DNA of 64,000 bases from Naegleria gruberi (Eukaryota). Both the position numbers and the translations under genes were made by a program. Of the stretch, positions 4,886-64,000 are shown piece by piece (the stretch's first letter is position 1; every line of letters starts with the position of its first letter). The notes under the pieces were generated by a model. That model was not told the origin of the DNA. It searched no databases and worked only from the letters and a program-made list of their open reading frames with translations. The DNA lies in the NCBI GenBank assembly GCA_000004985.1, contig GG738922.1; one strand, given 5' to 3'.

Positions 4886-4957
4886 AGGGGGCGAGGGGGA
4901 ATCGAACCCCCGGCCACAGCTTTGGAGGCTGCGATGTTACCATTACACCACCGCCCC
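4886..4957 (-). tRNA. tRNA-Trp (anticodon CCA)
   Basis: The reverse complement GGGGCGGTGGTGTAATGGTAACATCGCAGCCTCCAAAGCTGTGGCCGGGGGTTCGATTCCCCCTCGCCCCT folds as a cloverleaf: acceptor GGGGCGG/TCGCCCC, anticodon stem GCAGC/GCTGT with loop CTCCAAA, T-arm GGGGG-TTCGATT-CCCCC. A TTTT run lies downstream. Confidence 0.9.
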
Positions 4958-8512: not shown

Positions 8513-8712
8513 TTTGAATATAAACTCAATAAATTGTCTCATTGGTTTCAATTAATTTATTTTCTGCAATGTTTCTATTATTCTTATTATCGTTCAGAAT
8601 TGAAACAATTATGACAGTACTTAGAGATTTGAACAACCTTTGAGACCTTACCGTTGCACTGTAAATTTTGGCGCCCAATGTTCTACTGATTAAATTTTCA
8701 AATTTAAAAAAA

Positions 8713-10975
8713 ATGCCGAACATTAATAACAATGCCACTTCTGCACTACCCCGTAGAAGGCATCAACAGAATGAAAAATTGATGGAAAAGAAGAGTGAGG
8801 AAAAGTATAAGGATGCTAAAACAAAGTTAACAAAAAAGTTGTTTAAGGAAGCCGCCGAGGATTTGACGGAAGCCATTAATTTTAGACCTCTTCCAAAGTT
8901 TCATTTTCTCAGAGGAAATTGTTATAGACACACTCAGGATTATGACAGAGCAATATTGGATTACACTATTGCTATTGATACACAAGAGGAAGCAGCCTTT
9001 TATTTGGCAAGAGGAAAATGTTTTAGAACAATTGGAAAAATCAACAAATCAATAGCTGACTTTGATAGAGGTATTGATATTCTTTCTAGACCTTCAGCTC
9101 TTCAACCAACAGTCAATGTATCATCACTAAACAACTCGAGAGTGGTGGTGGACACTGCATCATCAACAAATCTCGGATCTGAAAATCAATCAATCCTGTT
9201 TCAACTCTATGTAGATAGAGGTTTAAGTTATTATGAAAAAGGAGAAAAGAAATTAGCTATTGAAAATTATGGAAAAGCTATCCTAATGAATGTTACAAAA
9301 CAGCAAAGTTTGTTTAAGGCATACTTCCACAGAGGTAATACTCTCAGAGAATGTGGAGAGCTCGATGCCTCCATCGAAGATCTCACTAAGGCCGCAGACT
9401 TAGATCCTAAAAATGCAGCAGTTCACAACAATTTAGGTTTAAGTTTCTTTGAAAAGAGAAACTTTCCAGGAGCAGAAAAGCGTTTTACTCTTTCTATTGA
9501 AAACGATCCAACAAAGGGAATGTAAGTGTTTTATTTTTGGGTTCAAAAGTACTAATTCAATGAATAGATATCACAACAATCGAGGTCTTGCATACTACAA
9601 GCTGAAAGCATTTGAAAAGGCAATAGAAGACTTTTCTTGTGCTCTCAATCTCGATCCAGATGATGGTAATATTTACTTCAACAGAGGTAACACATTGTTG
9701 GCAATGAAGAGGTATGAAGAAGCCTTACAAGATTTTAACCTTGCTATCAATAAGGTTGATACCGATGAAAACTATTTCCATTGTAAAGGTATTGCTTATC
9801 AGGAAATGAATGATATTCCTCAAGCCATTCAAATGTTCAAAAAAGCTCTTGAAATTAATGAAAAGAGTGTTCAAAGCTTGTACCATCTTGGTTTAATGTA
9901 CCATATTAATAATCAACTGTTTGAAGCCAAAAAACAATTTACCAAGGCGCTAGAACTAGTTCATGACCATAGAATTTACGAGAGCAGAGGTTTAGTTTAC
10001 ATGGATCTGCTGTATTACGAGTTGGCAATTCAAGATTTTTCAGCCGCAATAAGAATTGTTCCCGATTCTCCAAATAATTTCTTCCACAGAGGTAAATGCT
10101 TCCTGTGGTTGGAAAGATATACTGAAGCTGTTGAGGATTTTAATACAGCATTCAAACAACACTGTGACGACCCACAAGTGTTTAATGCAAGAGCTATGGC
10201 TTATAAGCATTTGAAAAAGCATGATGAAGCTATTTCTGATTTATCCTCTGCAATTAAGTCTGATGAGAACAATGTTGAATATTACTTTAACAGATCTCAA
10301 TGTTTTTTCGATTTGAAGAATTATAGACAAGCTTTGAAAGACTTGGATACAAGTTTAGAAATTGAAAAATCAGAACCAAAGCTATACTATCTCAGAGGGT
10401 TGACTTATTATGAAATGAAGAATTATAAGATGGCTATCAAGGATTTCAAAGGTGCTCTAAGGTTGAAGAATCCTCAAACTGGCGCGCTGATTTCTTCATT
10501 TGTTCAAGGTGAGCCAACCTTTGGTCATGATTGTTTCTATCACATGGGATTGTGTTATTGTTTCCTTGAGAAGTATGAATACGCTGTAGAATCATTTTCA
10601 AAAGCTGTCGACCTCATATCAGATAAGGAGAATGTTCATACCAAAGAGTCGTCTGCTGCTTTAATAATCGATGATAACATGTTACATGCAGTTTATCACC
10701 ACGAAAGAGCCAAAGCATACCAAATAATAGGAATGAACGAAAGAGCATTGGAGGATTTCACAACAGTTATCAAATATCAACCAGACAATGCACATGCATA
10801 CTTTAGGCGAGCTTTTGCATGGAAAGCTCTTGAGAGATTTGAGGAGGCTGCTGAAGATTTTGAGAAGGCAAAATCTCTGCAACCCAATAACCCTAATTTA
10901 GTAGTCAACTACAAGAAGATATACGATATTGCATTTGTAGAGCTATGTAAACCAGGTTCAGAGCACCTTTATTAA
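8713..10975 (+). CDS. TPR-repeat protein, two exons (8713..9521, 9568..10975)
   Basis: Track ORFs 8668..9525 and 9449..10975 join through a 46-nt intron at 9522..9567 (GTAAGT...tactaat...AG), giving ...DPTKG|IYHNNRGLAYYKLKAFEKAIEDF.... About 18 TPR units (AYFHRGN, AIxDFxxAL) run throughout. The track start at 8668 is TTG; the first ATG is 8713 behind aaaaaaaATG. Confidence 0.8.
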
Positions 10976-16094: not shown

Positions 16095-19004
16095 TCAAAC
16101 AGTTGGTTGCACTTTTACATGTAATGAGGTAGTTTTTCTAAGGACACAACAACATATGCAAGCGCCTAAACACAGAACAGACAACAAGCAAAATGCAACA
16201 AATCCAATAGTGAGGAGTACTCCAATAGTTACGATGGAAATACTGCTGTTTGTCTTGTCTAAGAGCATACAAACTGAGGAATCCTCAAGTTTCATACTCT
16301 TTGATCTGGTGAGAACAAGACCATACTTTTGAGTCTGTGTTGTTGCTTCAGCAGTTACTTTTACCATTATAATGGAAGAAGAGTCGAATCCTGTAATTGT
16401 AACTCTCTCAACATTATTTTGGCTGTCTTTTTCTGTTAAACCATTTGCAAACACTCTCTTACTCATTTTCCCATCTTCAAATACAGTTACAATCATATCC
16501 AAATCTGAGTATAGAGTAGGAACACTATTTGCTTGATTTGGAGCATCGTACCATGCAATAGTTGCTTTCAGGAATGAGTTTGCATCCCTTGAGTTTGTGG
16601 AATAGCAATGCACATTTACACCTCCTCCTGTAATCTCTTGACGATCAAAAAGATCCAATATGAATGTTGAATCGTCGAACTCTAGAATATTTGACAACCC
16701 TATTGCCCCAAAACCTTCGTACTTATTGGGGGTGTCTTTGTTTCCAAGAGCAACAACAAAACTATCACTTCCATCCAAACTTACAGCTCCATTCAAAGAT
16801 GTGCAGCTATTTATAAGAGCTGCTTTAATTAATGGACCAGAAGGATTTGCAAGACCTTTCAACTTTCGCATGTATTCTCTAATTAAGGCTATTGACCCAG
16901 AAACCTAATTGAACGTAAAGTTAGAATTGAATCAATAGAAGACTTACTATTGGTGTTGACATGGATGTTCCAGTAGATACCTTTAGAGCAGCATCATTTG
17001 TGGCATTGGGATATATGTTTCCACACTGATTTGTTGACAAGCTACCGTCGGATCTAGTCGAAACAACTCGATCTCCAACAGCAACACCTTTTTGGGTTAA
17101 TTGATAAATTTCAATAAACTTACAATCTGGTTTCATTCTATTACCAGTTGCCGGGCCTCTAGCAGAAAAGAAAGCAACATTATTCTGATTATAGGAGGTT
17201 TTCAACACTTTCAATTGAGATTCCATTCTCGAAGGACAACAAGAGAAAGAGCAAGAATAATCGGAACAACAAGTATCTGATGTGACACCACAAATCTCTG
17301 ACTCTTCATCGAGGTTAAGGTACTGAATAGAATCTACAAATCCTTGATTGCTTGTCATTGAAGCTCCCACAACAATAGCATTCTTTGAAGTAGTGGCAAT
17401 CGTTCCATCAACAGCAATATTACCCTCGTTTCCAGCAGCAAATACTACCACTGCATCTTGATTCTCATATAAAAAATCATCAATTTGCATGTCTCTCTTT
17501 CCATAGCTATTGCACAATCTGCAACAATCCAATCCGTAGGCAGATTTACATTTTTCATTAGCAACTAATGAGAATTTCTTTCCCAATGAATCATCATCTA
17601 TGAGCAGATAGCACTGACAATCATAAGAGCACGAGAATAATGAAGCATAGGAGCAGGTGTAACTATTGGAGAATATCCGTGAATTAAGATTGTATCCTTG
17701 TAAGAACATTGTTCTAATATCGGATGGTACCAAAAGATCAGATTCGTTTTCATTCTCAATATCTAACATGATAATCTTCGATTTGTAAGCTATACCATTA
17801 TATTCACTCATTGTATTGTTATCTTCCGATTCAAGATTTCCTGCCACAGATCCACACACATGACTAGAATATTAAGAATAAAGCACCAGAAAAAAACTTA
17901 CGTCCCATGTCCATCCAAAGAATCCTTTCCATCCGCTTGTTTACCATTATTACTCATGTTTATGTAGGCTAAAACTTTTCTATGGTCCTTATTAACTTGA
18001 CCTGTTGTAACTGGAAGAGAAGGATCCGAAAAAAAGCAACTATCCCAATCTAGGCCGGTATCTGCCACCGTTATGACTTCTCCCTCTCCTGTGATATTTC
18101 TTTCCCATATTGGATTGGAATTGGTATTTAGCTCACCATCTGTACGAAGACCTTGTGCATGTTTTGTTGCTACTTTGTTAGATGTTCTCATTGGTTCTCT
18201 TCTCTGTATCCACTTTACACTTGGGTTGTCCAAAAGAAATTCGGCTATTCTATCCAAAAACTTAAAAGGGACTTGAATATCTATCATACCATCACCAACA
18301 ATTTCAATTTGATAATTATCTGAATGATATTTCATAAAGGCATTAAAATTAGTTTGAAATCTCTCTGTAACTTTCAGAAGTGAATTGATATCCGTAAGGG
18401 AAGGAATCAGAAGAAGTTCAAGTGCTATTCTACTATCCCTTGTACTGTTTTTAGCTTGTTCATAAATATAAAACATATCAATACTAGTTTTCAGCTCGTT
18501 TTCGAATGATCGTATCCACACAATTTCATTCTCCATCTCTTTGAGCATGTATTGATCTGCTCTAATAAGGTAAATGTTTCCGCTCTTCAATAAATAGGTT
18601 TTTTCAAAATTGTAATGGGTTGTCAGGGTCGAATTTCTGTTCATTCTCTCAACTAATTTGACAATAAATAATTGATCCGTCGTTATTGATCGTTTCATGT
18701 TCAAAATTTCACTTTTCATGTTGTCTTTGTGTGATATTACAACTGTTTTCCTTTTAAATTCAATCAAGTCCACTTGATTGAATGAATCATCTCTAAATAT
18801 TCGATAAGCCTTCTCCATCATCACATCATTCAACACAAATCCATGTTCAAACTTTATCAAGAACACAATCTCAATCATCAATCCGATGATTATCAAACCC
18901 AACACTGCAACAAATAATCTGCTCCACCACGATGAAAATAGCGAGTATATTTTCTTCATATGAGTTGTTCTTTCAATGTTATTATTATTATTATTATTAA
19001 TCAT
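16095..19004 (-). CDS. subtilisin-like serine protease (peptidase S8) with N-terminal signal-anchor and C-terminal TM segment, three exons: 17902..19004, 16948..17863, 16095..16904
   Basis: Three track ORFs join through two tiny introns. The first runs 17864..17901 (GTAAGT..CTAG) inside the His motif: DGHGT|HVCGSVAG. The second runs 16905..16947 (GTAAGT..TTAG) just after the Ser motif: GTSMSTPI|VSGSIALIREY. The catalytic triad Asp (VADTGLD), His (DGHGTHV), Asn (AAGNEG) and Ser (GTSMSTP) is intact. Confidence 0.85.
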
Positions 19005-22526: not shown

Positions 22527-24272
22527 TTACTGAATTAGTGAGGATAATCTTAATTTCATTTTGAGAGCCTCTTCCTTTGATTTTTGAGTCATTGGATTGG
22601 TCTGTAAATTTAAATGTTTAAGACTTGGAAAATTGGAACTAAGCGTTTCAATTAAAACACTAACCCTGGTAATGGCATTCATACCACAATTCAAGGTGGA
22701 AAGGAGAGGAAATTTTTGTTGTGAAAAACAAGCAAATTCTTCTGTTCCAATATCATTGTTTGACAAATCTAACAATCCCAATTTTGGTAATGCATTAAAC
22801 GAAACTCCTTTCAAATATTTTCCTATTTGATTGGATCTCAATAGGAGAAATGTTAAACCTTTGAGTGTTGTATTATTAAGGTAAGTGATTCCTTCTCCAA
22901 TTTGATTAAAGTTCATTATTAAAATGTGCAATTTTGTAGTATTTCCTAAGAATAAAGCCTTTGCTCCTTCTGCTCCAACGTTGTTACTACTAATATTAAG
23001 TGTTTTCAATTTAAGAAGAGATCCACTAGAAATATATTCCATTGATTGGTATGTTAATTCGTTACCAGCAACACTAAGGTTAGTTAAATTGGAAAGTTTG
23101 GTAGTTATGGTTTTTACATTTGTATCACACAACTTATTATTAGCCACATCTAGAGAGGTTAATTGAGTTCTTGTGGAAATTAGCTCAATACTCTCTGTTG
23201 TAAGATTTGAGAGAGCTACGTGCAACGTTTTGAGATTATTATTCAACACCAGAGAAATGAGGTCATTAGTCAAGATATTTCTTGCAGAGAAATGAGTCAC
23301 CTTGCTAATCGGTAGAGTTGAAGAAAGTATTGTATGACCATGGTTCGAGTTTTTTTCAATGTTAATAGATTCAATATTGTCCATAAATAGTAGGGACAAA
23401 ATTCCAAGAGTTTCAAGAGAATTGTGTGCTATATTCAATACTTTCAAATGGGCATTCATAGACTTGGCAATCATATCGGCACCTTCATTTGTAACTTGAT
23501 TTATGCGAATATCAAGTGAAGAGAGTTTGAAATTGGCTAATTTACACAAACATTCAATGGCTCCATCATTCAGGTTTGAATTATCTACTCTTAGTTTTGT
23601 CAAATTTTCCAACTTTCCCTTGCATATATTCTCCATAGCAGCAACTGACACATCAATATCAGATAGATTAAGACTGGTTAGAGAGCTCAATAGTGCAACA
23701 TTTTTACAACCCTCCACAGAAATATTATTTCCACCCAAATTCAAATGAGCTAATTTTCCACAAGTCGTAGCAGCAAAGCACATTGTTCCTTCATCATTAA
23801 TCTTTACATTGGTACACTCCAATCTTTCCAATTCCACCAAATTCCCACTCATCAAATATTCCAATCCTTCATTCCCAATCGAATTGTGACTCACATTAAG
23901 AATCCTCAAAAACCTCAATTCCTTCGCCAAGTAATAACAAGCTCCCGAATCAATTCTATTACTACTAATATTCAATTCTTTCAAATTGACTAATCCTGCA
24001 GACAATAACTCTATACTCTTCCTACCAATTTTATTTCCTTCCAAATCCAAACGATGAATATTAGAAGCATACTCTGTACAAGCCTTCATAATCTTTGTGC
24101 CCATGTAATCATCAAGATCCATCCGAGGACTCACCAAGTCAATATCTAATTCTGTTTGATTAATGATGGATTGCCAATATTTGCAAACTAGTAGACAATT
24201 TGACAATACTTGGATGGACGGAAGGTATTGGAAAATGTGGTGCTTGAATATTTCATCGGGTAATTGTTGCAT
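22527..24272 (-). CDS. F-box/LRR protein with ribonuclease-inhibitor-type leucine-rich repeats
   Basis: 581-aa ORF with ATG at 24270-24272 behind a T-run on the plus strand. Clear F-box (MQQLPDEIFKHHIFQYLPSIQVLSNCLLVCKYWQSIIN) followed by about 18 RI-like LRRs (LxxLxLxxNxIGxEGAxxL). Confidence 0.75.
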   Translation of the reverse strand: MQQLPDEIFKHHIFQYLPSIQVLSNCLLVCKYWQSIINQTELDIDLVSPRMDLDDYMGTKIMKACTEYASNIHRLDLEGNKIGRKSIELLSAGLVNLKELNISSNRIDSGACYYLAKELRFLRILNVSHNSIGNEGLEYLMSGNLVELERLECTNVKINDEGTMCFAATTCGKLAHLNLGGNNISVEGCKNVALLSSLTSLNLSDIDVSVAAMENICKGKLENLTKLRVDNSNLNDGAIECLCKLANFKLSSLDIRINQVTNEGADMIAKSMNAHLKVLNIAHNSLETLGILSLLFMDNIESINIEKNSNHGHTILSSTLPISKVTHFSARNILTNDLISLVLNNNLKTLHVALSNLTTESIELISTRTQLTSLDVANNKLCDTNVKTITTKLSNLTNLSVAGNELTYQSMEYISSGSLLKLKTLNISSNNVGAEGAKALFLGNTTKLHILIMNFNQIGEGITYLNNTTLKGLTFLLLRSNQIGKYLKGVSFNALPKLGLLDLSNNDIGTEEFACFSQQKFPLLSTLNCGMNAITRVSVLIETLSSNFPSLKHLNLQTNPMTQKSKEEALKMKLRLSSLIQ

Positions 24273-28715: not shown

Positions 28716-28788
28716 GCCCGTCTAGCTCAGTCGGTAGAGCGCAAGGCTCTTAACCTTGTGGTCGTGGGTTCGACCCCCACGGTGGGCG
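28716..28788 (+). tRNA. tRNA-Lys (anticodon CTT)
   Basis: GCCCGTCTAGCTCAGTCGGTAGAGCGCAAGGCTCTTAACCTTGTGGTCGTGGGTTCGACCCCCACGGTGGGCG is a near-canonical eukaryotic tRNA-Lys-CTT. Anticodon stem CAAGG/CCTTG with loop CTCTTAA, acceptor GCCCGTC/GGTGGGC, T-rich 3' flank. Confidence 0.9.
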
Positions 28789-48781: not shown

Positions 48782-48862
48782 GTTGAGGTGGCCGAGTGGT
48801 TAAGGCGCCAGCCTGCTAAGTTGGTGGAGTAATCCGCGTGGGTTCGAATCCCATCCTCAACG
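48782..48862 (+). tRNA. tRNA-Ser (anticodon GCT)
   Basis: GTTGAGGTGGCCGAGTGGTTAAGGCGCCAGCCTGCTAAGTTGGTGGAGTAATCCGCGTGGGTTCGAATCCCATCCTCAACG is a type-II tRNA with a long variable arm. Anticodon loop CTGCTAA, acceptor GTTGAGG/CCTCAAC, TTTT immediately 3'. Confidence 0.9.
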
Positions 48863-51191: not shown

Positions 51192-52577
51192 ATGATAAAT
51201 AGGAGGAAGATCATCATCTTTGGAGGAGCTGTTGTTTTATTTATTTTAATGACCACGTTTTTGTATTATTCCGTATTTTCCACACCACATAAATACGAAA
51301 CATATCAACTTGAAAAACGAAACCAAACTAAACATAATAGTTCGGAGAAGGATCTTTTCATCATCAATTTACCAAAAGATGTCAATTTAGTACCTGTCAA
51401 ACCTGTAGGCCAAATCACTTTCAACACCATGCAAAATATGCAAAATAGTCAATGTAGTGCAACACGTGGAAATTTGAATCCTCCGAGAAGTTTCATTACG
51501 AAACCAGAAAATAGTCCATGGCCAAACTTCTCACCTTCAACATTTTCCATAGAAACTGATTTTATTCAGTGGAAAAATAATAATTCTGATTATTGGAATC
51601 GTATTTCTCGTGGATTGGATGGAGAAGCATTAAATAGTGAAAAATTAAAGATGAACGAAATGGGATTGACATTGAATTTACATTTGAAACCAAAGGAAGG
51701 GCATTTACCCATCTGGCTAAAAACATTCAAGAGAAGAACTCCTCTTGATATTGTTCTGGATGCAGTATGTAGAATTGATGACATTTCACACACGATTTTA
51801 TATGTTACCATTGATGGTGGAGATTTTGATCAAGTGGTAGAGGAATTAATCAAAGTCAAGTGTGTGAAAGTTAAAATTTATTTCCATCCAATTCTTAGTG
51901 ATTTGAGAAATTTAGGTTTAGACAAGAGAAATTTAGATACTGGATTGGTTTTAAATTCTCATTATGTGTATGGATTGTATTTGCTGACTCACAAATTGGA
52001 TTATCCCTATGTTATTACATTGGAGGACGATTTGGAACCAACTCCTGATTTTTATAGATTCCACTATAGTTTATATCATTTTGTGTTTGGGAAACAAGCA
52101 TCTTATTACAATAGTAAGAAAATATTTGCAATTGGTGCATTTTCTCATGGTCCAATTGTTGATTGCATTTCATTGGCTGCCAAATTATCAAACGATGAAA
52201 CACATAAATGTGGAAATAAGGCAGTCCATCAACTTGTGGAAGAAGATTATTTCCCTGGATGGGGCAGTGGTATTCCAAAGGAAAGCTTTTTAGAATATTG
52301 GGGTGATTGGAAGAGTAATAGACATATTTATGATTATGGAATGAGTATGCTTAGATCTGGAGAAAATCGATACACTCTCGTTCCATGTTCTCCTAGAGTT
52401 AGAACTGTTGCAAATGCTGGCATTAATGGTCAAAATTCTGGTAGATGGGATCATTACATTAGTCAATTTGCTCAGTGGAATGAAAAACCACTGAATAGAA
52501 TTTATTATGTTGATAGAAGAGATGGCGTTGTGAAGGCAGACGAAAAGGGAAAATTTTTATACAACAAGTTGACTTGA
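51192..52577 (+). CDS. GT13-family glycosyltransferase (N-acetylglucosaminyltransferase I / POMGNT1-like), type-II membrane topology
   Basis: 461 aa with an N-terminal signal-anchor (IIIFGGAVVLFILMTTFLYY). The conserved GT13 motif VITLEDDLEPTPDFYRFH (the EDD/DxD region) and C-terminal catalytic-domain Cys/His positions are present. Confidence 0.7.
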   Translation: MINRRKIIIFGGAVVLFILMTTFLYYSVFSTPHKYETYQLEKRNQTKHNSSEKDLFIINLPKDVNLVPVKPVGQITFNTMQNMQNSQCSATRGNLNPPRSFITKPENSPWPNFSPSTFSIETDFIQWKNNNSDYWNRISRGLDGEALNSEKLKMNEMGLTLNLHLKPKEGHLPIWLKTFKRRTPLDIVLDAVCRIDDISHTILYVTIDGGDFDQVVEELIKVKCVKVKIYFHPILSDLRNLGLDKRNLDTGLVLNSHYVYGLYLLTHKLDYPYVITLEDDLEPTPDFYRFHYSLYHFVFGKQASYYNSKKIFAIGAFSHGPIVDCISLAAKLSNDETHKCGNKAVHQLVEEDYFPGWGSGIPKESFLEYWGDWKSNRHIYDYGMSMLRSGENRYTLVPCSPRVRTVANAGINGQNSGRWDHYISQFAQWNEKPLNRIYYVDRRDGVVKADEKGKFLYNKLT

Positions 52578-54829: not shown

Positions 54830-55002
54830 TTTTTTAATTAGTAATTTTACTGCAAATTTGAGACTTAACACTCGATAACTGAACCTTTAGTTTGGGTTTT
54901 TTGTACTTGTGGCACTAACAAGTTCAGCATTGACTGGTTTTGTTTTGCTTGAACTTAACATACATTAATTTATTAAGAACTAATAGAATTACTGAATAAG
55001 AT

Positions 55003-55075
55003 GCCGACATAGCTCAGTTGGGAGAGCGTAAGACTGAAGATCTTAAGGTCCCTGGTTCGATCCCTGGTGTCGGCA
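55003..55075 (+). tRNA. tRNA-Phe (anticodon GAA)
   Basis: GCCGACATAGCTCAGTTGGGAGAGCGTAAGACTGAAGATCTTAAGGTCCCTGGTTCGATCCCTGGTGTCGGCA is near-identical to canonical eukaryotic tRNA-Phe-GAA. TTTT lies 3'. Confidence 0.9.
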
Positions 55076-55169
55076 AATTTTAGTGTCTTTGATAACAGGA
55101 TTCAATTTGCAATAAATCAAATCTGAAATGAAAAGTTGAATATTTATTAATTTTTAAAAAAATAGCACG

Positions 55170-58618: not shown

Positions 58619-59668
58619 TTAATCACTAGTCGATGCACTTGCAACAATGAAAACTTCCTTATCATAATTATAACTAGTCATTGCATGACAGCCCCAAAAT
58701 TCCATTCCTGTACACCAATATCTCGACCATGTTTCATCACCATTTTGTAAGTAATGATTCCATGAATAGTGTTCTGAATTATTTCCATACAAGTATTCTA
58801 TTAAATTTTGAGTTTCTTTGGATGCATCTTGCATTCCATAAGGTGGTGATGAACAATCTTTGAAAATGTTTTCCCATCCTTCTTCTGGTTCAGCATTTTG
58901 TAAAGTTTCATTAAATGAAATTACAATTTCATTGTTGAATGATAATGAAACATATTTTGGCAATTTCCGATTTGAAGTTAGTTGTTTAAAGTTATTTAAC
59001 ATGGATAGAAATGCATTTCCAATATTCATCCTTTTTGAATGTCTAAAATCAGAAATTTTGTAAACAATTGTTGATTTCCAATCGAAAGAAACCTCTGATT
59101 TGGAAAGTAAAATCAAAACTTGACTAGCATCATAATAATTATATGGATTACCAAGTTGTGAACAGACGTGTTTCATTAGCATGAATTTGTGTAAGGAAAT
59201 TATCAAATTTTCCTTCACAATTCCTTTCTCATTATTACAATGATAGAATTTCAATAATTTTTTCAATAGCTCACATGGAGAATAAAGTGAAATTCCAACA
59301 ACACCTCCCTTTTCAGAATATTTAGTATAATCTTCATGAATAAATTCCTCCTCACTCAATAATTTCAATACAAAATCCTTCATTAATGCTTTACAATGAG
59401 TCTCATTATTTTTTGAACAATTGTCGTAAATTAGTGAATTGAATAATTCATCATCACCAGCACGATCGGAAGGAAAATTCAATAAATTATTTAAAAATTG
59501 TTTAAAGTGATAAGAAAATAATAATTTATCCAATTTTGGATTTGTTACTAGTTCATTAAAGGTTCTACACGTCAACGGAATGGAATTTAGCAATGATCTT
59601 AAATCTAGATATGAAAATATAAGAATAAATAGGTCGGCATTCAAGTTGTTATAAAGCGATGGCGACAT
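58619..59668 (-). CDS. F-box domain protein
   Basis: 349 aa with ATG at 59666-59668. Strong F-box at aa 10-50 (LNADLFILIFSYLDLRSLLNSIPLTCRTFNELV). Confidence 0.6.
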   Translation of the reverse strand: MSPSLYNNLNADLFILIFSYLDLRSLLNSIPLTCRTFNELVTNPKLDKLLFSYHFKQFLNNLLNFPSDRAGDDELFNSLIYDNCSKNNETHCKALMKDFVLKLLSEEEFIHEDYTKYSEKGGVVGISLYSPCELLKKLLKFYHCNNEKGIVKENLIISLHKFMLMKHVCSQLGNPYNYYDASQVLILLSKSEVSFDWKSTIVYKISDFRHSKRMNIGNAFLSMLNNFKQLTSNRKLPKYVSLSFNNEIVISFNETLQNAEPEEGWENIFKDCSSPPYGMQDASKETQNLIEYLYGNNSEHYSWNHYLQNGDETWSRYWCTGMEFWGCHAMTSYNYDKEVFIVASASTSD

Positions 59669-59732
59669 TTTTTTAAAGATCAGATTTGTTCTGAAAATGC
59701 ACGAATAAAAATTTCATGGCTCGCCACGTTTA

Positions 59733-59803
59733 CCGTCTCGGGAGGAATCGAACCTCCGTCAATGGATTCAAAGTCCACTATGCTACCATTACACCACGAG
59801 ACG
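59733..59803 (-). tRNA. tRNA-Gln (anticodon TTG)
   Basis: The reverse complement CGTCTCGTGGTGTAATGGTAGCATAGTGGACTTTGAATCCATTGACGGAGGTTCGATTCCTCCCGAGACGG resembles eukaryotic tRNA-Gln-TTG. Acceptor CGTCTCG/CGAGACG, anticodon loop CTTTGAA, T-arm GGAGG-TTCGATT-CCTCC. Confidence 0.85.
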
Positions 59804-59906
59804 AGCTCATTGATCTGAAATTGTATGTTATGAAAAATACTTTACCATAGCTGGAATAAAAATATATTTGTTTGTTTTCTCTTTTATCTTGTTTCAATAT
59901 GATTTG

Positions 59907-61188
59907 TTACCACTCAAGAGAAAGGTCAATCAACTGTGGCATACTTTCGAATAATTGATAATCATCTTCTATTAGCTGATTATCCCTAATTTCAAGCGTT
60001 GCTAAATGACTCAAATTAGCAGAGCATAATGATTTGACACCCTCAACTCCAATATTATTCTCTTCCAAATGCAAACTAGTCAATGATTTCAATTCACACA
60101 AATACTTTACACCCTCATCTCCAATATCATTTTCATTAATCCACAACTCTTTCAACTGCTTCATTCCACTAACAATCTTACAACCTTCAACACCAAATAA
60201 ATTAGTATTGACGTTGAGCTTTGTTAATTGTTTCAATTCTGTTAAGTATGAAAGCCCTTCAATATCTAAATAAATTTCGTATACTTCAAGTGCCGTCAAC
60301 TGTTTCATTTCAGATAAATACTTTGCACCTTCGTTTCTAATATCATTATACGATATATTGAGATACGTCAATTTAGGTAACTCGTTAGAAATCAATTCTG
60401 CACTTTTTTTTGTTATTCCAGTATTCCGCAAGTCAAGATGGGTTAACTGTTTCATTTTACATAAATGAACTAAGCCTTCATCAGTAATTATATTATTACT
60501 AATGCACAACAATGTTAAATTTTTCAATTTGGTTAGTGAGATACCACCTTCAACTGTCAAATTGTTGTTTTGTATGTGTAATTCTCTTAAATTATCCAAT
60601 TCACTAATAATTTTAGCTCCTTCATTTCCAATTTAATTGTAACCAACTTCGAGTGTTGTTAATTTTTTCAAATTTCCTAAATATCTAGCTCCTTCAAGAC
60701 CTATATCAGGGCCATGGAATACATAGTGCTCATTATAATGCAAATCTAGAAACGCTAATGTATCTTACTCCTTCACCTCGAATATTATTCCCAGAAATAT
60801 CAAGATAGGTCAATTGATCCATTTTCCCAATAAATACAGCTCCTTCAGCTCCAATATTATTGAAATCAATATCAAGCTTGGTTAAATGTTTCAATTGACT
60901 AATGAATCTAGCACCTGCAGTACCAATTTCACTACTTGTAATATCCAAACTTTTCAACTGTTCAAATTGAGTAATATTTGTTAATTCCGTAATATTCTTA
61001 TAATCAATTTTCAAATCTACGACACAATTCTTAAATTTACTCTTGCTCATCAAGTGCAATTTTTGATCATTGAATTGTATTTTGTTAAAATCGATTGATA
61101 ATTTTATCATGTCAATAATCAATTCGTTCCACTCCTTGGAAATTAATGAACATTTAGAAATAATGATATGTGAATCGAGGAAGGACAT
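59907..61188 (-). pseudogene. ribonuclease-inhibitor-type LRR protein gene disrupted by a frameshift (~60736-60764) and an in-frame TAA (60633-60635); probable pseudogene or sequence error
   Basis: Track ORFs 60733..61188 (ATG at 61188) and 59907..60599 belong to one LRR series. Reading the downstream ORF frame upstream gives perfect LRRs, AFLDLHYNEHYVFHGPDIGLEGARYLGNLKKLTTLEVGYN*IGNEGAKIISELDNLRELHIQNNNLTVEGG..., with TAA exactly where a residue of the LxxLxLxxNxIGxEGA unit is expected. The upstream ORF ends ...GEGVRYISVSRFAL* in the other frame. Confidence 0.6.
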
Positions 61189-61729
61189 GATTTCACATAC
61201 ATATCATTTGGCAATCGGAGAGGTGGTAGTGTATTCATCATTATTTTTTTTAAATTTTTAAAAATTATAATTTTTTAAAAAATACTGGATTAAATTCTTC
61301 CTCCGATTCAATATGATGTTGAGACAAATGAGGTGATGAACCTCCATTCACCTGTTAGTTATTGTAAGGAATGAGGTTGCGGACTAGATTCTTGTAGAGA
61401 TGAGGTGCTGTCATCATTGAATTGTTTATGGATAAATACCATCAAAATCTTTTAGCCTGATTCCTGGCCAATTTTGTGGTTTCTGTACGGATTCGGAAGT
61501 AGCTGTTGTTGATAAAGTTGTCTCCCATTTTCCAGCTCTACAAGGCAACTTGCATTTTCTGAACACGTTTGGGGTAATTACCAATCTACTAATTGCTAAT
61601 GTGCCAAAGACTTTAGGCTAATTGAGAGGACTATTTATTTTGTTGGCTTGGACCACACGATAATGTGTATGAATCACTCACTTTGTGTGTTGTAAATAAT
61701 GAAAAAACAAACAAATTTACTTTATAGAA

Positions 61730-64000
61730 ATGTCAAACAAGTTTATAAGAGATTGGTTGGCTTGTGTGGTGATTCTATTCCTTCTTTGTTCTGTTTCAAA
61801 TGCTGGTAGCTTGGCAATTGTTTGTATTCCTGGCGAGTACATTAGTGGTAGTGCTTGTCTAGATTGTCCAGGAGGCACCTATTCAAGTGGCATGACGACA
61901 TCTTGCTCTGATTGTTCAGCTGGTTATTATTCTGAAGTAGGCTCAACAAGTTCTGACTGCTCTATATGTGCTGCTGGAACTTACTCAAATAATAGAGCCT
62001 CAAGTTGTACTAACTGTGCAGGTGGAACATATTCAGCTGGTGGAGCTTCGAGTTGTACCAGTTGCTCAGCAGGTTATTATTCAAGTGCTGGCTCGTCATC
62101 ATGTTATCAATGTGGAGCTGGAACTTATTCAACTGGTGGAGCTTCAAGTTGTACTAACTGTGCAGCTGGTTATTATTCATCGACTGTTGGAGCAACAAGT
62201 TCCTCAGTTTGTTTGATGTGCAGTGCAGGAACATATTCCACAATATCAGTTGCTGGTGGAGCTTCGAGTTGTACTAGTTGCTCAGCTGGTTACTATTCAA
62301 GTGCTGGAGCATCATCATGTTCTCAATGTGGAGCTGGTACTTATTCAGCTGTTAGCTCATCAAGTTGTACCAATTGTGCAGCTGGTTCATATTCAAGTGC
62401 TGGCTCATCCAGCTGTACTAGTTGTTCAGCTGGTTATCGTTCAAGTGCTGGGTCTTCTTCTTGCTCCCAATGTGGTGCTGGTACTTACTCAGCTGGTGGA
62501 GCTTCGAGTTGTACCAGTTGTTCAGCAGGTTATTATTCAAGTGCTGGCTCGTCATCATGTTCTCAATGTGGAGCTGGAACATACTCAGCTGGTGGAGCTT
62601 CAAGTTGCACTAATTGTGGAGCAGGTACTTATTCTTCGACAGTTGGAGGAACAAGCTCCTCAGTTTGCTTAAATTGTGTAGCTGGTACTTATTCCACAAT
62701 TTCAGGAGCAACTAGTGCCACAGTGTGTCAAAATTGTAATGCAGGAAGTTTTTCAACTGGTGGCTCATCCAGTTGTACCAATTGTGCAGCAGGTTATTAT
62801 TCAGCTTCAGGTTCCTCATCATGTTCTCAATGTGGAGCTGGAACATATTCAACTGGTGGTTCATCAAGTTGTGCAAGTTGTGCAGCTGGTTCATATTCAA
62901 GTGCTGGTTCTTCCAGCTGCACTAGTTGTTCAGCAGGTTACTATTCAAATCCTGGTTCGTCATCATGTTCCCAATGTGGAGCTGGTACTTATTCAAGTAC
63001 TGGCTCATCTAGTTGTACTAGTTGCTCAGCAGGTTATTATTCAAACTCAGGTTCTTCATCATGTTCTCAATGCGGAGCTGGAACATATTCGACTGGAGGG
63101 TCCTCAGGTTGTACCAGTTGCTCTGCAGGTTATTATTCAAGCGCTGGTTCTTCTTCTTGCTCTCAATGTGGAGCTGGTACTTATTCAACTGGTGGAGCTT
63201 CCAGCTGTACTAGTTGCTTAGCTGGTTATTATTCAAGTGCTGGCTCTTCCTCTTGCTCCCAATGTGGAGCTGGAACTTACTCAACTGGTGGCTCATCCAG
63301 TTGCACTAATTGTGGAGCAGGTACTTATTCATCAACACCTGGCGCCACAAACGCTGGAGTTTGCTTGACATGTTCTGCTGGTTACTATTCAAGCGTTGGT
63401 GCCTCGTCTTGCTCTAAATGTTCTGCTGGTACTTATTCAAGTAGTGGCTCATCAAGTTGTACTAATTGTGCAGCTGGATATTATTCAACCTCAGGTTCTT
63501 CATCATGTTCTCAATGTGGGGCAGGAACATATTCGACTGGAGGGTCCTCAAGTTGTACCAGTTGCTCAGCTGGTTATTATTCAAGTGCTGGCTCGTCATC
63601 ATGTTCTCAATGTGGAGCTGGTACTTATTCAAGTACTGGCTCATCTAGTTGTACTAGTTGCTCAGCAGGTTATTATTCAACTTCAGGTTCTTCATCATGT
63701 TCTCAATGCGGAGCTGGAACATATTCGACTGGAGGGTCCTCGAGTTGTACCATTTGCTCAGCTGGTTATCGTTCAAGTGCTGGGTCTTCTTCTTGCTCTC
63801 AATGTGGAGCTGGAACATTTTCGACTGGTGGCTCTTCAAGTTGTGCAAATTGTACAGCTGGTTCATATTCAAGTGTGGGCTCTTCCAACTGTACTAGCTG
63901 CTTAGCAGGTTATTATTCAAGCACTGGTTCGTCATCATGTTCTCAATGTGGAGCTGGTACTTATTCAACTAGTGCCTCATCAAACTGTTCCAGTTGTGGA
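61730..64000 (+). CDS. secreted cysteine-rich tandem-repeat protein with ephrin-receptor-like (GCC2/GCC3-type) CxxC...AGxYS modules; 3' end lies beyond the window
   Basis: ATG at 61730 then signal peptide MSNKFIRDWLACVVILFLLCSVSNA. The same frame stays open for more than 750 codons to the window end. Over 35 consecutive ~19-aa modules of the form C[TS][NS]C[SA]AG[YS]YSSAGSSSC / SQCGAGTYSTGG[AS]SSC. The track omits it because there is no stop in the window. Confidence 0.75.
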   Translation, partial: MSNKFIRDWLACVVILFLLCSVSNAGSLAIVCIPGEYISGSACLDCPGGTYSSGMTTSCSDCSAGYYSEVGSTSSDCSICAAGTYSNNRASSCTNCAGGTYSAGGASSCTSCSAGYYSSAGSSSCYQCGAGTYSTGGASSCTNCAAGYYSSTVGATSSSVCLMCSAGTYSTISVAGGASSCTSCSAGYYSSAGASSCSQCGAGTYSAVSSSSCTNCAAGSYSSAGSSSCTSCSAGYRSSAGSSSCSQCGAGTYSAGGASSCTSCSAGYYSSAGSSSCSQCGAGTYSAGGASSCTNCGAGTYSSTVGGTSSSVCLNCVAGTYSTISGATSATVCQNCNAGSFSTGGSSSCTNCAAGYYSASGSSSCSQCGAGTYSTGGSSSCASCAAGSYSSAGSSSCTSCSAGYYSNPGSSSCSQCGAGTYSSTGSSSCTSCSAGYYSNSGSSSCSQCGAGTYSTGGSSGCTSCSAGYYSSAGSSSCSQCGAGTYSTGGASSCTSCLAGYYSSAGSSSCSQCGAGTYSTGGSSSCTNCGAGTYSSTPGATNAGVCLTCSAGYYSSVGASSCSKCSAGTYSSSGSSSCTNCAAGYYSTSGSSSCSQCGAGTYSTGGSSSCTSCSAGYYSSAGSSSCSQCGAGTYSSTGSSSCTSCSAGYYSTSGSSSCSQCGAGTYSTGGSSSCTICSAGYRSSAGSSSCSQCGAGTFSTGGSSSCANCTAGSYSSVGSSNCTSCLAGYYSSTGSSSCSQCGAGTYSTSASSNCSSCG
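61900..64000 (+). repeat. near-identical 114-nt (2 x 57) coding tandem repeats
   Basis: Example: tgtaccagttgctcagcaggttattattcaagtgctggctcgtcatcatgttctcaatgtggagctgg.acttattca recurs with 90-100% identity at ~62040, 62270, 62510, 62930, 63060, 63540 and 63650. Other-frame and antisense track ORFs here (QVVLTVQLV..., MFSWLSFKCW...) are artefacts of the repeat. Confidence 0.8.

What the first reader, a model, noticed from the sequence alone, without database searches (positions are those of the whole stretch)
59907..61188. Ribonuclease-inhibitor-type LRR gene with an in-frame TAA inside a perfect repeat unit plus a frame jump - pseudogene, error, or programmed recoding?
The TAA at 60633-60635 falls exactly where an LRR unit needs a residue: ...LEVGYN[TAA]IGNEGAKII.... 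The flanking repeats are intact, which suggests a very recent CAA/GAA-to-TAA change or a sequencing error. About 110 nt upstream the reading frame also shifts by +1 between ...GEGVRYIS and TLAFLDLHYNEH.... Elsewhere in the window TAA is a genuine stop (e.g. scramblase, TPR and Sof1 genes), so a global ciliate-like reassignment is unlikely.
Basis: seen in the sequence. Interest (0 to 1): 0.5.

Follow-up and report, generated by a model that had tools for sequence, protein, structure and literature searches.

The report
Recently broken F-box/LRR pseudogene in Naegleria
The interrupted leucine-rich-repeat gene is an ordinary, recently inactivated copy (pseudogene) of a large amoeba gene family, broken by a stop mutation and two small deletions rather than read by any unusual decoding mechanism.

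Summary
On the minus strand, an LRR reading frame carries an in-frame TAA at 60633-60635 and changes frame at 60754/60755. The window is Naegleria gruberi NEG-M, and the 151-aa N-terminal fragment is annotated there as NAEGRDRAFT_75240. A syntenic contig from an environmental metagenome, about 97% identical, resolves both lesions. It has CAA (Gln) where the window has TAA. It also has 17 extra bases (CCAATTGACTAATTTAA) at the frame jump, which restore a perfect 24-residue repeat (YISQLTNLTFLDLHYN). A third lesion went unnoticed: one base is missing at 61197/61198. This cuts off the first half of an F-box whose true start is the ATG at 61241. With all three repaired, the gene encodes a 450-aa protein with an F-box and 14 LRR units. 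The other lineage is broken too, but at different places: its own CAA-to-TAA change, a 2-nt deletion at the start, and a 6-nt deletion in a repeat. TAA ends 23 of 36 long ORFs in the window, and the stop and shift are not conserved. Recoding and code reassignment are therefore rejected. The verdict is an ordinary, recent pseudogene in a fast-evolving family. I could not check reads or transcripts of NEG-M itself.

The parts
59907..61241 (-). Whole decayed gene. It is an F-box plus 14 LRR units of about 24 residues each (RI-type, Pfam LRR_6). With three repairs it reads as one 450-codon ORF.
   Evidence: The reconstruction is 1353 nt and in frame. LRR_6 scores E=3.9e-43.
61143..61241 (-). Ancestral start (ATGATG at 61241-61236) and first half of the F-box (MMNTLPPLRLPNDMY...). 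In the window it runs out of frame into a 32-aa dead-end ORF.
   Evidence: Joining it to the main frame raises Pfam F-box-like from 13.2 bits (E=0.077) to 25.0 bits (cutoff 24.3) and gives F-box 23.6 bits (cutoff 20.5).
61197..61198 (-). Lesion 1: one T is missing. The window reads GATATGTA-TGTGAAATC and the orthologue reads GATATGTATTGTGAAATC. The frameshift falls inside the F-box.
   Evidence: Alignment.
60733..61188 (-). 151-aa ORF annotated in the reference genome as predicted protein NAEGRDRAFT_75240 (XP_002669845.1). It is the N-terminal fragment of the decayed gene. Its last 6 codons (VSRFAL) are out-of-frame readings.
   Evidence: Exact look-up.
60754..60755 (-). Lesion 2: a 17-nt deletion between these two bases. 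The orthologue has CCAATTGACTAATTTAA here, which encodes part of YISQLTNLTFLDL.
   Evidence: Alignment. The repaired unit is in register with its neighbours.
60633..60635 (-). Lesion 3: an in-frame TAA where the orthologue has CAA (Gln), in ...LEVGYN[Q]IGNEGAK... The next base is A.
60814..60816 (-). An intact CAA codon in the window (GKMD-Q-LTYLD). The orthologous contig L001 has TAA here, an independent nonsense mutation in the other lineage.
60217..60222 (-). Six bases (AAAGCT on the minus strand) present in the window and deleted in L001. The deletion removes K-L from the LTKLNV core of one repeat.
59732..59804 (-). tRNA-Gln (anticodon UUG) just downstream of the gene. It is conserved in L001 and serves as a synteny anchor. 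It is a normal Gln tRNA, not a suppressor.

Best explanation
This is a recently inactivated (unitary) pseudogene in Naegleria gruberi NEG-M. It belongs to the large family of F-box proteins with RI-type leucine-rich repeats. The ancestral gene encoded a protein of about 450 aa. An N-terminal F-box would dock it to Skp1 in an SCF ubiquitin ligase, and a solenoid of about 14 repeats of 24 residues would recruit substrates. That function is inferred from domain content only. In the NEG-M lineage three mutations destroyed the reading frame. One is a 1-nt deletion in the F-box. One is a 17-nt deletion in the fourth repeat. One is a C-to-T change that turned a CAA Gln codon into TAA. The same locus in a related environmental lineage carries three different lesions, so the gene has lost its constraint in both lineages and is decaying independently. 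No special decoding is involved. A ribosome starting at 61188 would end after 151 residues, which is the fragment the reference annotation lists as a gene.
For: Source. ORFs in the window match annotated N. gruberi proteins exactly, on a 209,908-bp scaffold. The 151-aa fragment is XP_002669845.1.

Orthologue. ENA metagenome contig L001 (2981 bp) has the same flanking genes: the Cys-rich repeat gene upstream and tRNA-Gln downstream. It is 96.7% identical across the 1535-nt blastn segment that spans the gene.

Window lesions. L001 has CAA at the window's TAA, +17 nt at the frame jump and +1 nt in the F-box. Applying the three repairs gives an uninterrupted 1353-nt ORF. Every repeat is then in register and the F-box passes the Pfam cut-offs when scanned as the N-terminal 70 residues.

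L001 lesions. They are a TAA at a different Gln codon, a 2-nt deletion that puts the ATGATG out of frame, and a 6-nt deletion in a repeat core.

Control gene. A second contig from the same sample (L004) covers an intact window gene. It has the same synonymous divergence (pS 0.025 against 0.027) and no frame-breaking change in 1383 nt: 7 synonymous and 4 non-synonymous substitutions and one 3-nt indel. The LRR gene has 7 synonymous, 9 non-synonymous and 2 nonsense substitutions, 3 frameshifting indels and 1 in-frame indel.

Nonsense count. By computation, 4-6% of random point changes in this ORF create stops. Two nonsense changes among 18 substitutions is about what neutral decay predicts.

Stop usage. 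TAA is the normal terminator here, ending 23 of 36 long ORFs.
Against: pN/pS between the two alleles is about 0.31, or 0.38 counting the nonsense changes. It is not 1, so most of the divergence accumulated under purifying selection and the loss of function must be recent. The counts are too small to separate 0.3 from 1 with any confidence.

I could not examine NEG-M reads, a second NEG-M haplotype or any transcript data. Some of the three lesions could in principle be reference errors, or heterozygous with an intact allele.

The polarity of the 1-nt and 2-nt indels at the 5' end rests on two sequences plus the F-box profile, not on an outgroup.
Confidence: 0.85

Rival explanations
1. Errors in the NEG-M reference assembly: the gene is intact in the organism, and the TAA and the indels are sequencing or assembly artefacts.
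For: The related lineage has the 'correct' sequence at all three sites. A single missing T next to another T (61197/61198) is a plausible base-calling error. No reads could be inspected.
Against: A 17-nt deletion with only 1 nt of flanking microhomology is not a typical sequencing error. Three errors in 1.35 kb would imply an error rate that the rest of the window contradicts. About 42 kb of the window lies in long intact ORFs, including ones of 2091, 975 and 896 aa. The control gene shows no frame-breaking difference from its orthologue over 1383 nt. The independent lineage also carries disabling lesions, so the locus is dispensable anyway.
Confidence: 0.07
2. The gene is still functional in a reduced form. 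One option is that the 151-aa product (half an F-box plus three repeats) or a downstream-initiated LRR-only product is made and used. Another is that NEG-M is heterozygous with an intact second allele that the assembly does not show.
For: The 151-aa ORF is an annotated gene model. pN/pS below 1 shows past constraint. Naegleria is described as mainly a heterozygous diploid (PMC9928731).
Against: The 151-aa product lacks the first half of the F-box: 13.2 bits, E=0.077, below the cut-off. It ends in six out-of-frame residues. The first ATG after the TAA lies 59 codons downstream, in the middle of a repeat. The related lineage is truncated at a different place, so no shared shortened product is conserved.
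Confidence: 0.05
3. Programmed recoding (UAA read-through plus a +1 ribosomal frameshift), or a local or global reassignment of TAA to Gln.
For: Both lineages have a TAA exactly where the other has CAA (Gln). In L001 that TAA is the only interruption of an otherwise open run of 431 codons. A tRNA-Gln(UUG) gene sits next to the gene. From general knowledge, near-cognate Gln tRNAs can misread UAA at low level.
Against: Neither the stop nor the shift site is conserved in the orthologue, and the shift is explained by a 17-nt deletion. A second frameshift lies in the F-box. There is no X_XXY_YYZ slippery heptamer at the junction (read from the sequence). The TAA is followed by A, which from general knowledge is an efficient termination context. 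There is no Rfam recoding element. TAA terminates 23 of 36 long ORFs, including exact matches to annotated proteins. None of the five tRNAs in the window has a UUA anticodon.
Confidence: 0.02
4. An intron spans the stop and/or the frame jump, so the mature mRNA is intact.
For: N. gruberi genes can have introns. A GTAAGA...TAG string lies at the frame jump (60773-60751 on the minus strand).
Against: Removing that 23-nt string does not restore the LRR frame, and it deletes the conserved VRYIS of the repeat (read by hand). The TAA sits inside a canonical repeat (GYN-x-IGNEGA), with coding sequence in register on both sides. In L001 the whole stretch is continuous, in-register coding sequence, so it is exon, not intron.
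Confidence: 0.01

Closest known systems
F-box/LRR proteins (FBXL-type substrate receptors of SCF ubiquitin ligases), including the expanded Naegleria gruberi set annotated 'LRR_RI domain-containing protein' or 'F-box domain-containing protein'
   Same: It has an N-terminal F-box followed by a long run of LRRs with the N-x-I-G-x-E-G-A signature (Pfam LRR_6). The best database relatives are N. gruberi paralogues at 29-35% identity, some with F-box hits. An intact paralogue (581 aa, F-box-like plus LRR_6) lies in the same window at 22527-24272.
   Different: This copy is not intact: it has two frameshifts and a nonsense codon. No close (>40% identical), full-length paralogue or orthologue was found in N. 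fowleri or N. lovaniensis, so it is a lineage-specific family member. The repeats are 24 residues long, not the 28/29 of ribonuclease inhibitor itself.
Unitary (non-processed) pseudogenes in rapidly evolving repeat-protein families
   Same: It has disabling point and indel mutations relative to a syntenic orthologue, and it sits in its original genomic context between the same neighbours. Independent lesions occur in two lineages.
   Different: It is very young. It differs from the orthologue by only 1.3% substitutions, and pN/pS is still about 0.3. Part of it is annotated as a protein-coding gene.
Programmed stop-codon read-through, +1 frameshifting, or stop-to-Gln code variants (ciliate-type)
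   Same: The only resemblance is superficial: an in-frame TAA at a Gln position and a +1 change of frame.
   Different: The site is not conserved, there is no recoding signal, TAA is the main terminator in the same window, and the frame change is a 17-nt deletion.
GALA-type F-box proteins with 24-residue LRRs (Ralstonia effectors). This is recalled from memory and was not tested.
   Same: An F-box followed by 24-residue repeats of the RI/CC-like class.
   Different: No comparison was run, so this is a lead for classifying the repeat subtype only.

Membership tests
F-box/LRR (FBXL-type) protein family | F-box domain at the N-terminus | tested here: met
   This is met only after repairing the 1-nt deletion. 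The N-terminal 70 residues then score F-box-like 25.0 bits (cut-off 24.3) and F-box 23.6 bits (cut-off 20.5). In the context of the whole 450-aa protein the scores are 21.2 and 19.6 bits, just under the cut-offs. The annotated N-terminus alone scores 13.2 bits.
F-box/LRR (FBXL-type) protein family | C-terminal leucine-rich repeat array | tested here: met
   Pfam LRR_6 scores E=3.9e-43, with LRR_8, LRR_4 and LRR_14 also above their cut-offs. There are 14 units in register.
F-box/LRR (FBXL-type) protein family | Binds Skp1 and acts as an SCF substrate receptor | not testable with these tools
   This is biochemical. It is inferred from domain content only.
Pseudogene (unitary, non-processed) | Disabling mutations relative to an intact homologous sequence at the same site | tested here: met
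   The window has TAA against CAA, a 17-nt deletion and a 1-nt deletion relative to the syntenic L001.
Pseudogene (unitary, non-processed) | Relaxed selection (dN/dS approaching 1) | tested here: inconclusive
   pN/pS is 0.31-0.38 (7 synonymous, 9 non-synonymous, 2 nonsense). The intact control gene gives about 0.14 (7 synonymous, 4 non-synonymous). The value is higher but the counts are too small.
Pseudogene (unitary, non-processed) | No full-length functional product (no transcript or protein) | not testable with these tools
   No expression data were accessible. No annotated protein near-identical to the C-terminal part was recovered, but the protein word index also missed known identical fragments.
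Programmed recoding (read-through or ribosomal frameshift) | The stop or shift site is conserved in orthologues | tested here: not met
   L001 has CAA and an unshifted frame at both sites.
Programmed recoding (read-through or ribosomal frameshift) | A recoding signal: slippery sequence, stimulatory RNA element or leaky stop context | tested here: not met
   There is no slippery heptamer at 60733-60760, and the stop is TAA-A. An Rfam E-value scan of 59500-61700 finds only the tRNA.
Variant genetic code (TAA = Gln) | TAA is used as a sense codon genome-wide and is absent as a terminator | tested here: not met
   23 of 36 ORFs of at least 150 aa end in TAA, including ORFs identical to annotated N. 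gruberi proteins. None of the five tRNAs in the window has a UUA anticodon.

The most novel reading that the evidence does not exclude
The locus could be a case of recurrent, lineage-specific knock-out of one F-box/LRR receptor within the N. gruberi species complex. In that reading, different null alleles arise and persist because losing this receptor is neutral or even advantageous, for example if a pathogen effector exploits it. More exotically, the CAA/TAA alternation seen in both lineages might reflect tolerated low-level UAA-to-Gln read-through. In L001 the TAA is the only interruption of an otherwise open run of 431 codons.
Probability: 0.04. Interest if true: 0.45.

Novelty: new member of a known kind. 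Interest (0 to 1): 0.12.

Why it matters
The practical value is for annotation. NAEGRDRAFT_75240, listed as a 151-aa 'predicted protein', is the stump of a decayed 450-codon F-box/LRR gene and should be flagged as a pseudogene. The case also documents birth-and-death turnover in the expanded Naegleria F-box/LRR family, since the same locus was disabled independently in two close lineages. It removes any suggestion of stop-codon recoding in this organism. It does not open a new question.

Tried and rejected
Intron rescue. The only splice-like string at the frame jump (GTAAGA...TAG, 23 nt) does not restore the frame, and L001 shows the region is continuous exon.

Programmed frameshift or read-through. 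Rejected on non-conservation and the absence of signals.

Code reassignment. Rejected on stop usage.

Search for further independent copies or transcripts:
- An exact look-up of nine possible products of the C-terminal ORF and of L001's downstream ORF found nothing in the collection.
- An exact look-up of the 151-aa product in the contig index found nothing.
- Two word-index protein searches returned only paralogues at no more than 45% identity. They did not even return the known identical fragment P0125, so they are uninformative about near-identical sequences.
- A scan of JGI metagenome contigs returned only two relatives at 31% identity.
- A literature search for the ENA project PRJEB11402 gave nothing, so the origin of the comparison sample is unknown.
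- Papers on Naegleria genomes gave no statement about this family's pseudogenes.

Deletion mechanism. I looked for direct repeats flanking the 17-nt deletion and found only 1 nt of microhomology, so no mechanism can be assigned.

Full report
**What is in the sequence**

The feature lies on the minus strand. An ORF starts at the ATG at 61188 and runs 151 codons (...NNIRGEGVRYISVSRFAL) to TAA TAA at 60733-60738. The leucine-rich-repeat (LRR) series then continues in the next frame...FLDLHYNEHYVFHGPDIGLEGARYLGNLKKLTTLEVGYN. A TAA at 60633-60635 interrupts it. It resumes as IGNEGAKIISELDNL... for 241 more codons, to the stop at 59907-59909.

The joined product is an LRR protein beyond doubt. Pfam LRR_6 scores E=5.8e-44, and LRR_8, LRR_4 and LRR_14 are also above their cut-offs.

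One detail needs correcting. The real junction is VRYIS | FLDLHYN at 60755|60754.

**Source**

Several long ORFs in the window are identical to annotated Naegleria gruberi NEG-M proteins on a 209,908-bp scaffold. The 151-aa ORF is itself annotated as predicted protein NAEGRDRAFT_75240 (XP_002669845.1). The window is 34% GC.

**The decisive comparison**

The 90%-identity cluster of the 151-aa protein has a second member, a 98-aa protein. It comes from an ENA metagenome assembly, ERZ929261, contig k127_584615, 2981 bp, here called L001.

L001 is the orthologous locus, not a paralogue. It carries the same divergently transcribed Cys-rich repeat gene upstream and the same tRNA-Gln downstream. The blastn segment that spans the gene is 96.7% identical over 1535 nt.

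The base-by-base alignment shows three things.
- Where the window has TAA (60633-60635), L001 has CAA. The repeat reads GYN-Q-IGNEGAK.
- At the frame jump, L001 has 17 additional bases (CCAATTGACTAATTTAA). These restore the frame and give YISQLTNLTFLDLHYN, in perfect register with the neighbouring units FISQLKHLTKLDIDFN and YLGNLKKLTTLEVGYN.
- 9-10 nt upstream of the annotated ATG, L001 has one more T (GATATGTATTGTGAAATC against GATATGTATGTGAAATC).

**A third lesion and the true gene**

In the window, an ATGATG at 61241 opens a 32-aa dead-end ORF that begins MMNTLPPLRLPNDMY. With the extra T, this joins the main frame as MMNTLPPLRLPNDMYCEIMSFLDSHIIISKCSLISKEWNELI, which is an F-box.

Pfam supports this. 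The repaired N-terminal 70 residues score F-box-like 25.0 bits (cut-off 24.3) and F-box 23.6 bits (cut-off 20.5). The annotated N-terminus alone scores 13.2 bits, E=0.077.

With all three repairs the locus, 59907-61241, reads as one 1353-nt ORF. It encodes a 450-aa protein with an F-box, a linker and 14 repeats. Eleven repeats are 24 residues long, two are 25, and one is 32. The 8-residue irregularity in the 32-residue unit (EHYVFHGPD) is present in both lineages, so it is an old feature and not a lesion.

**The other lineage is broken too, but differently**

L001 has three lesions of its own.
- TAA where the window has CAA, at window 60814-60816 (GKMD-Q-LTYLD).
- A 2-nt deletion just after the ATGATG, which puts the start out of frame with the F-box.
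- A 6-nt in-frame deletion at window 60217-60222, which removes K-L from the LTKLNV core of a repeat.

That makes six lesions, three per lineage, and none is shared.

**Calibration with a control gene**

The same ENA sample yielded a second contig, L004. It is orthologous to the intact window gene at 51192-52577.

| | LRR gene (window vs L001) | Control gene (window vs L004) |
|---|---|---|
| Synonymous substitutions | 7 | 7 |
| Non-synonymous substitutions | 9 | 4 |
| Nonsense substitutions | 2 | 0 |
| Frameshifting indels | 3 | 0 |
| In-frame indels | 1 (6 nt) | 1 (3 nt) |
| pS | 0.027 | 0.025 |
| pN/pS | 0.31 (0.38 with nonsense) | about 0.14 |

Non-coding flanks of the control gene diverge by about 6%.

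By computation, 4-6% of random point substitutions in this ORF create a stop. Two nonsense changes among 18 substitutions is therefore about what neutral decay predicts. Both being CAA-to-TAA is unremarkable: CAA is the commoner Gln codon here (10 of 16), and both changes are C-to-T transitions.

A pN/pS still below 1 implies the gene was constrained for most of the time since the two lineages split, and that the loss is recent. This is an inference, and the counts are small.

**Rivals**

*Programmed recoding or code reassignment* is rejected on five grounds.
- The stop and the shift are not conserved.
- The shift is a 17-nt deletion, and a second frameshift lies upstream.
- No slippery heptamer or known RNA element is present, and the stop context is TAA-A.
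- TAA ends 23 of 36 ORFs of at least 150 aa, including exact matches to annotated proteins.
- The five tRNAs in the window are ordinary.

*Intron rescue* is rejected. The affected stretch is in-register coding sequence in L001.

*Reference error* cannot be formally excluded without reads, but it is unlikely.
- A 17-nt deletion is not a typical sequencing artefact.
- Three errors in 1.35 kb contrast with about 42 kb of long intact ORFs in the same window.
- They also contrast with a control gene free of frame-breaking differences.

*A retained truncated function, or an intact second haplotype,* remains possible but has no support.

**Comparison with the known**

The gene belongs by domain content to the F-box/LRR class of SCF substrate receptors. 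Its nearest relatives are N. gruberi paralogues at 29-35% identity, annotated 'LRR_RI domain-containing protein' or 'predicted protein'. An intact paralogue lies at 22527-24272 in the same window. No close orthologue was found in other Naegleria species or in JGI metagenomes.

**Verdict**

This is an ordinary young pseudogene in an expanded, fast-turning-over family, and part of it is mis-annotated as a short protein-coding gene. Interest is low. The useful outcomes are the corrected gene structure, the third lesion, the exact nature of the 'frame jump', and the exclusion of recoding.

Noticed in passing
window 61285/61286 (about 45 nt upstream of the ancestral ATG at 61241); L001 about 1155-1454: The orthologous contig L001 has about 300 nt of extra sequence here that is absent from the window. 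This is an insertion or deletion in the presumed promoter region of the decayed gene. Polarity is unknown, and the segment has no other copy in the window.
   Followed up: partly
window 61703-64000 (+), running off the window end: There is a long open frame with a signal-peptide-like start at about 61730 (MSNKFIRDWLACVVILFLLCSVSNA). It is followed by dozens of Cys-rich tandem units (CSAGYYSSAGSSSCSQCGAGTYSTGG...). Local GC is 44.7%, against about 34% elsewhere. It is conserved and syntenic in L001. The many 150-180-aa ORFs listed in other frames here are shadows of this repeat.
   Followed up: partly
window 22527-24272 (-) and 58619-59668 (-): Two further F-box genes lie in the same 64 kb. One is an intact 581-aa F-box-like plus LRR_6 paralogue. 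The other is a 349-aa F-box protein without LRRs, immediately next to the tRNA-Gln. This illustrates how expanded the F-box repertoire is.
   Followed up: partly
window 4887-4957, 28716-28788, 48782-48862, 55002-55076, 59732-59804: Five dispersed tRNA genes (Trp-CCA, Lys-CTT, Ser-GCT, Phe-GAA, Gln-TTG) lie in 64 kb. The Gln tRNA is identical in the related environmental lineage, while the adjacent intergenic DNA differs by about 5%.
   Followed up: no
ENA assembly ERZ929261 (run ERR1078381, project PRJEB11402): contigs L001 and L004: This 'metagenome' contains a Naegleria lineage very close to NEG-M: synonymous divergence about 2.5% and intergenic divergence about 5-6%. It could serve as a comparison genome for N. 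gruberi annotation. The sample's origin could not be traced in the literature library.
   Followed up: partly
window 16095-19004 (-) and 8668-10975 (+): There are runs of adjacent or overlapping long ORFs on one strand: 16095-16871 / 16921-17859 / 17898-19004, and 8668-9525 / 9449-10975. They look like exons of single genes split by short introns or frame changes. I did not examine them.
   Followed up: no
tool behaviour: The word-index protein search did not return P0125 (98 aa, 100% identical to the query over its whole length) or P0124. Its silence about near-identical proteins is therefore not evidence of absence.
   Followed up: no
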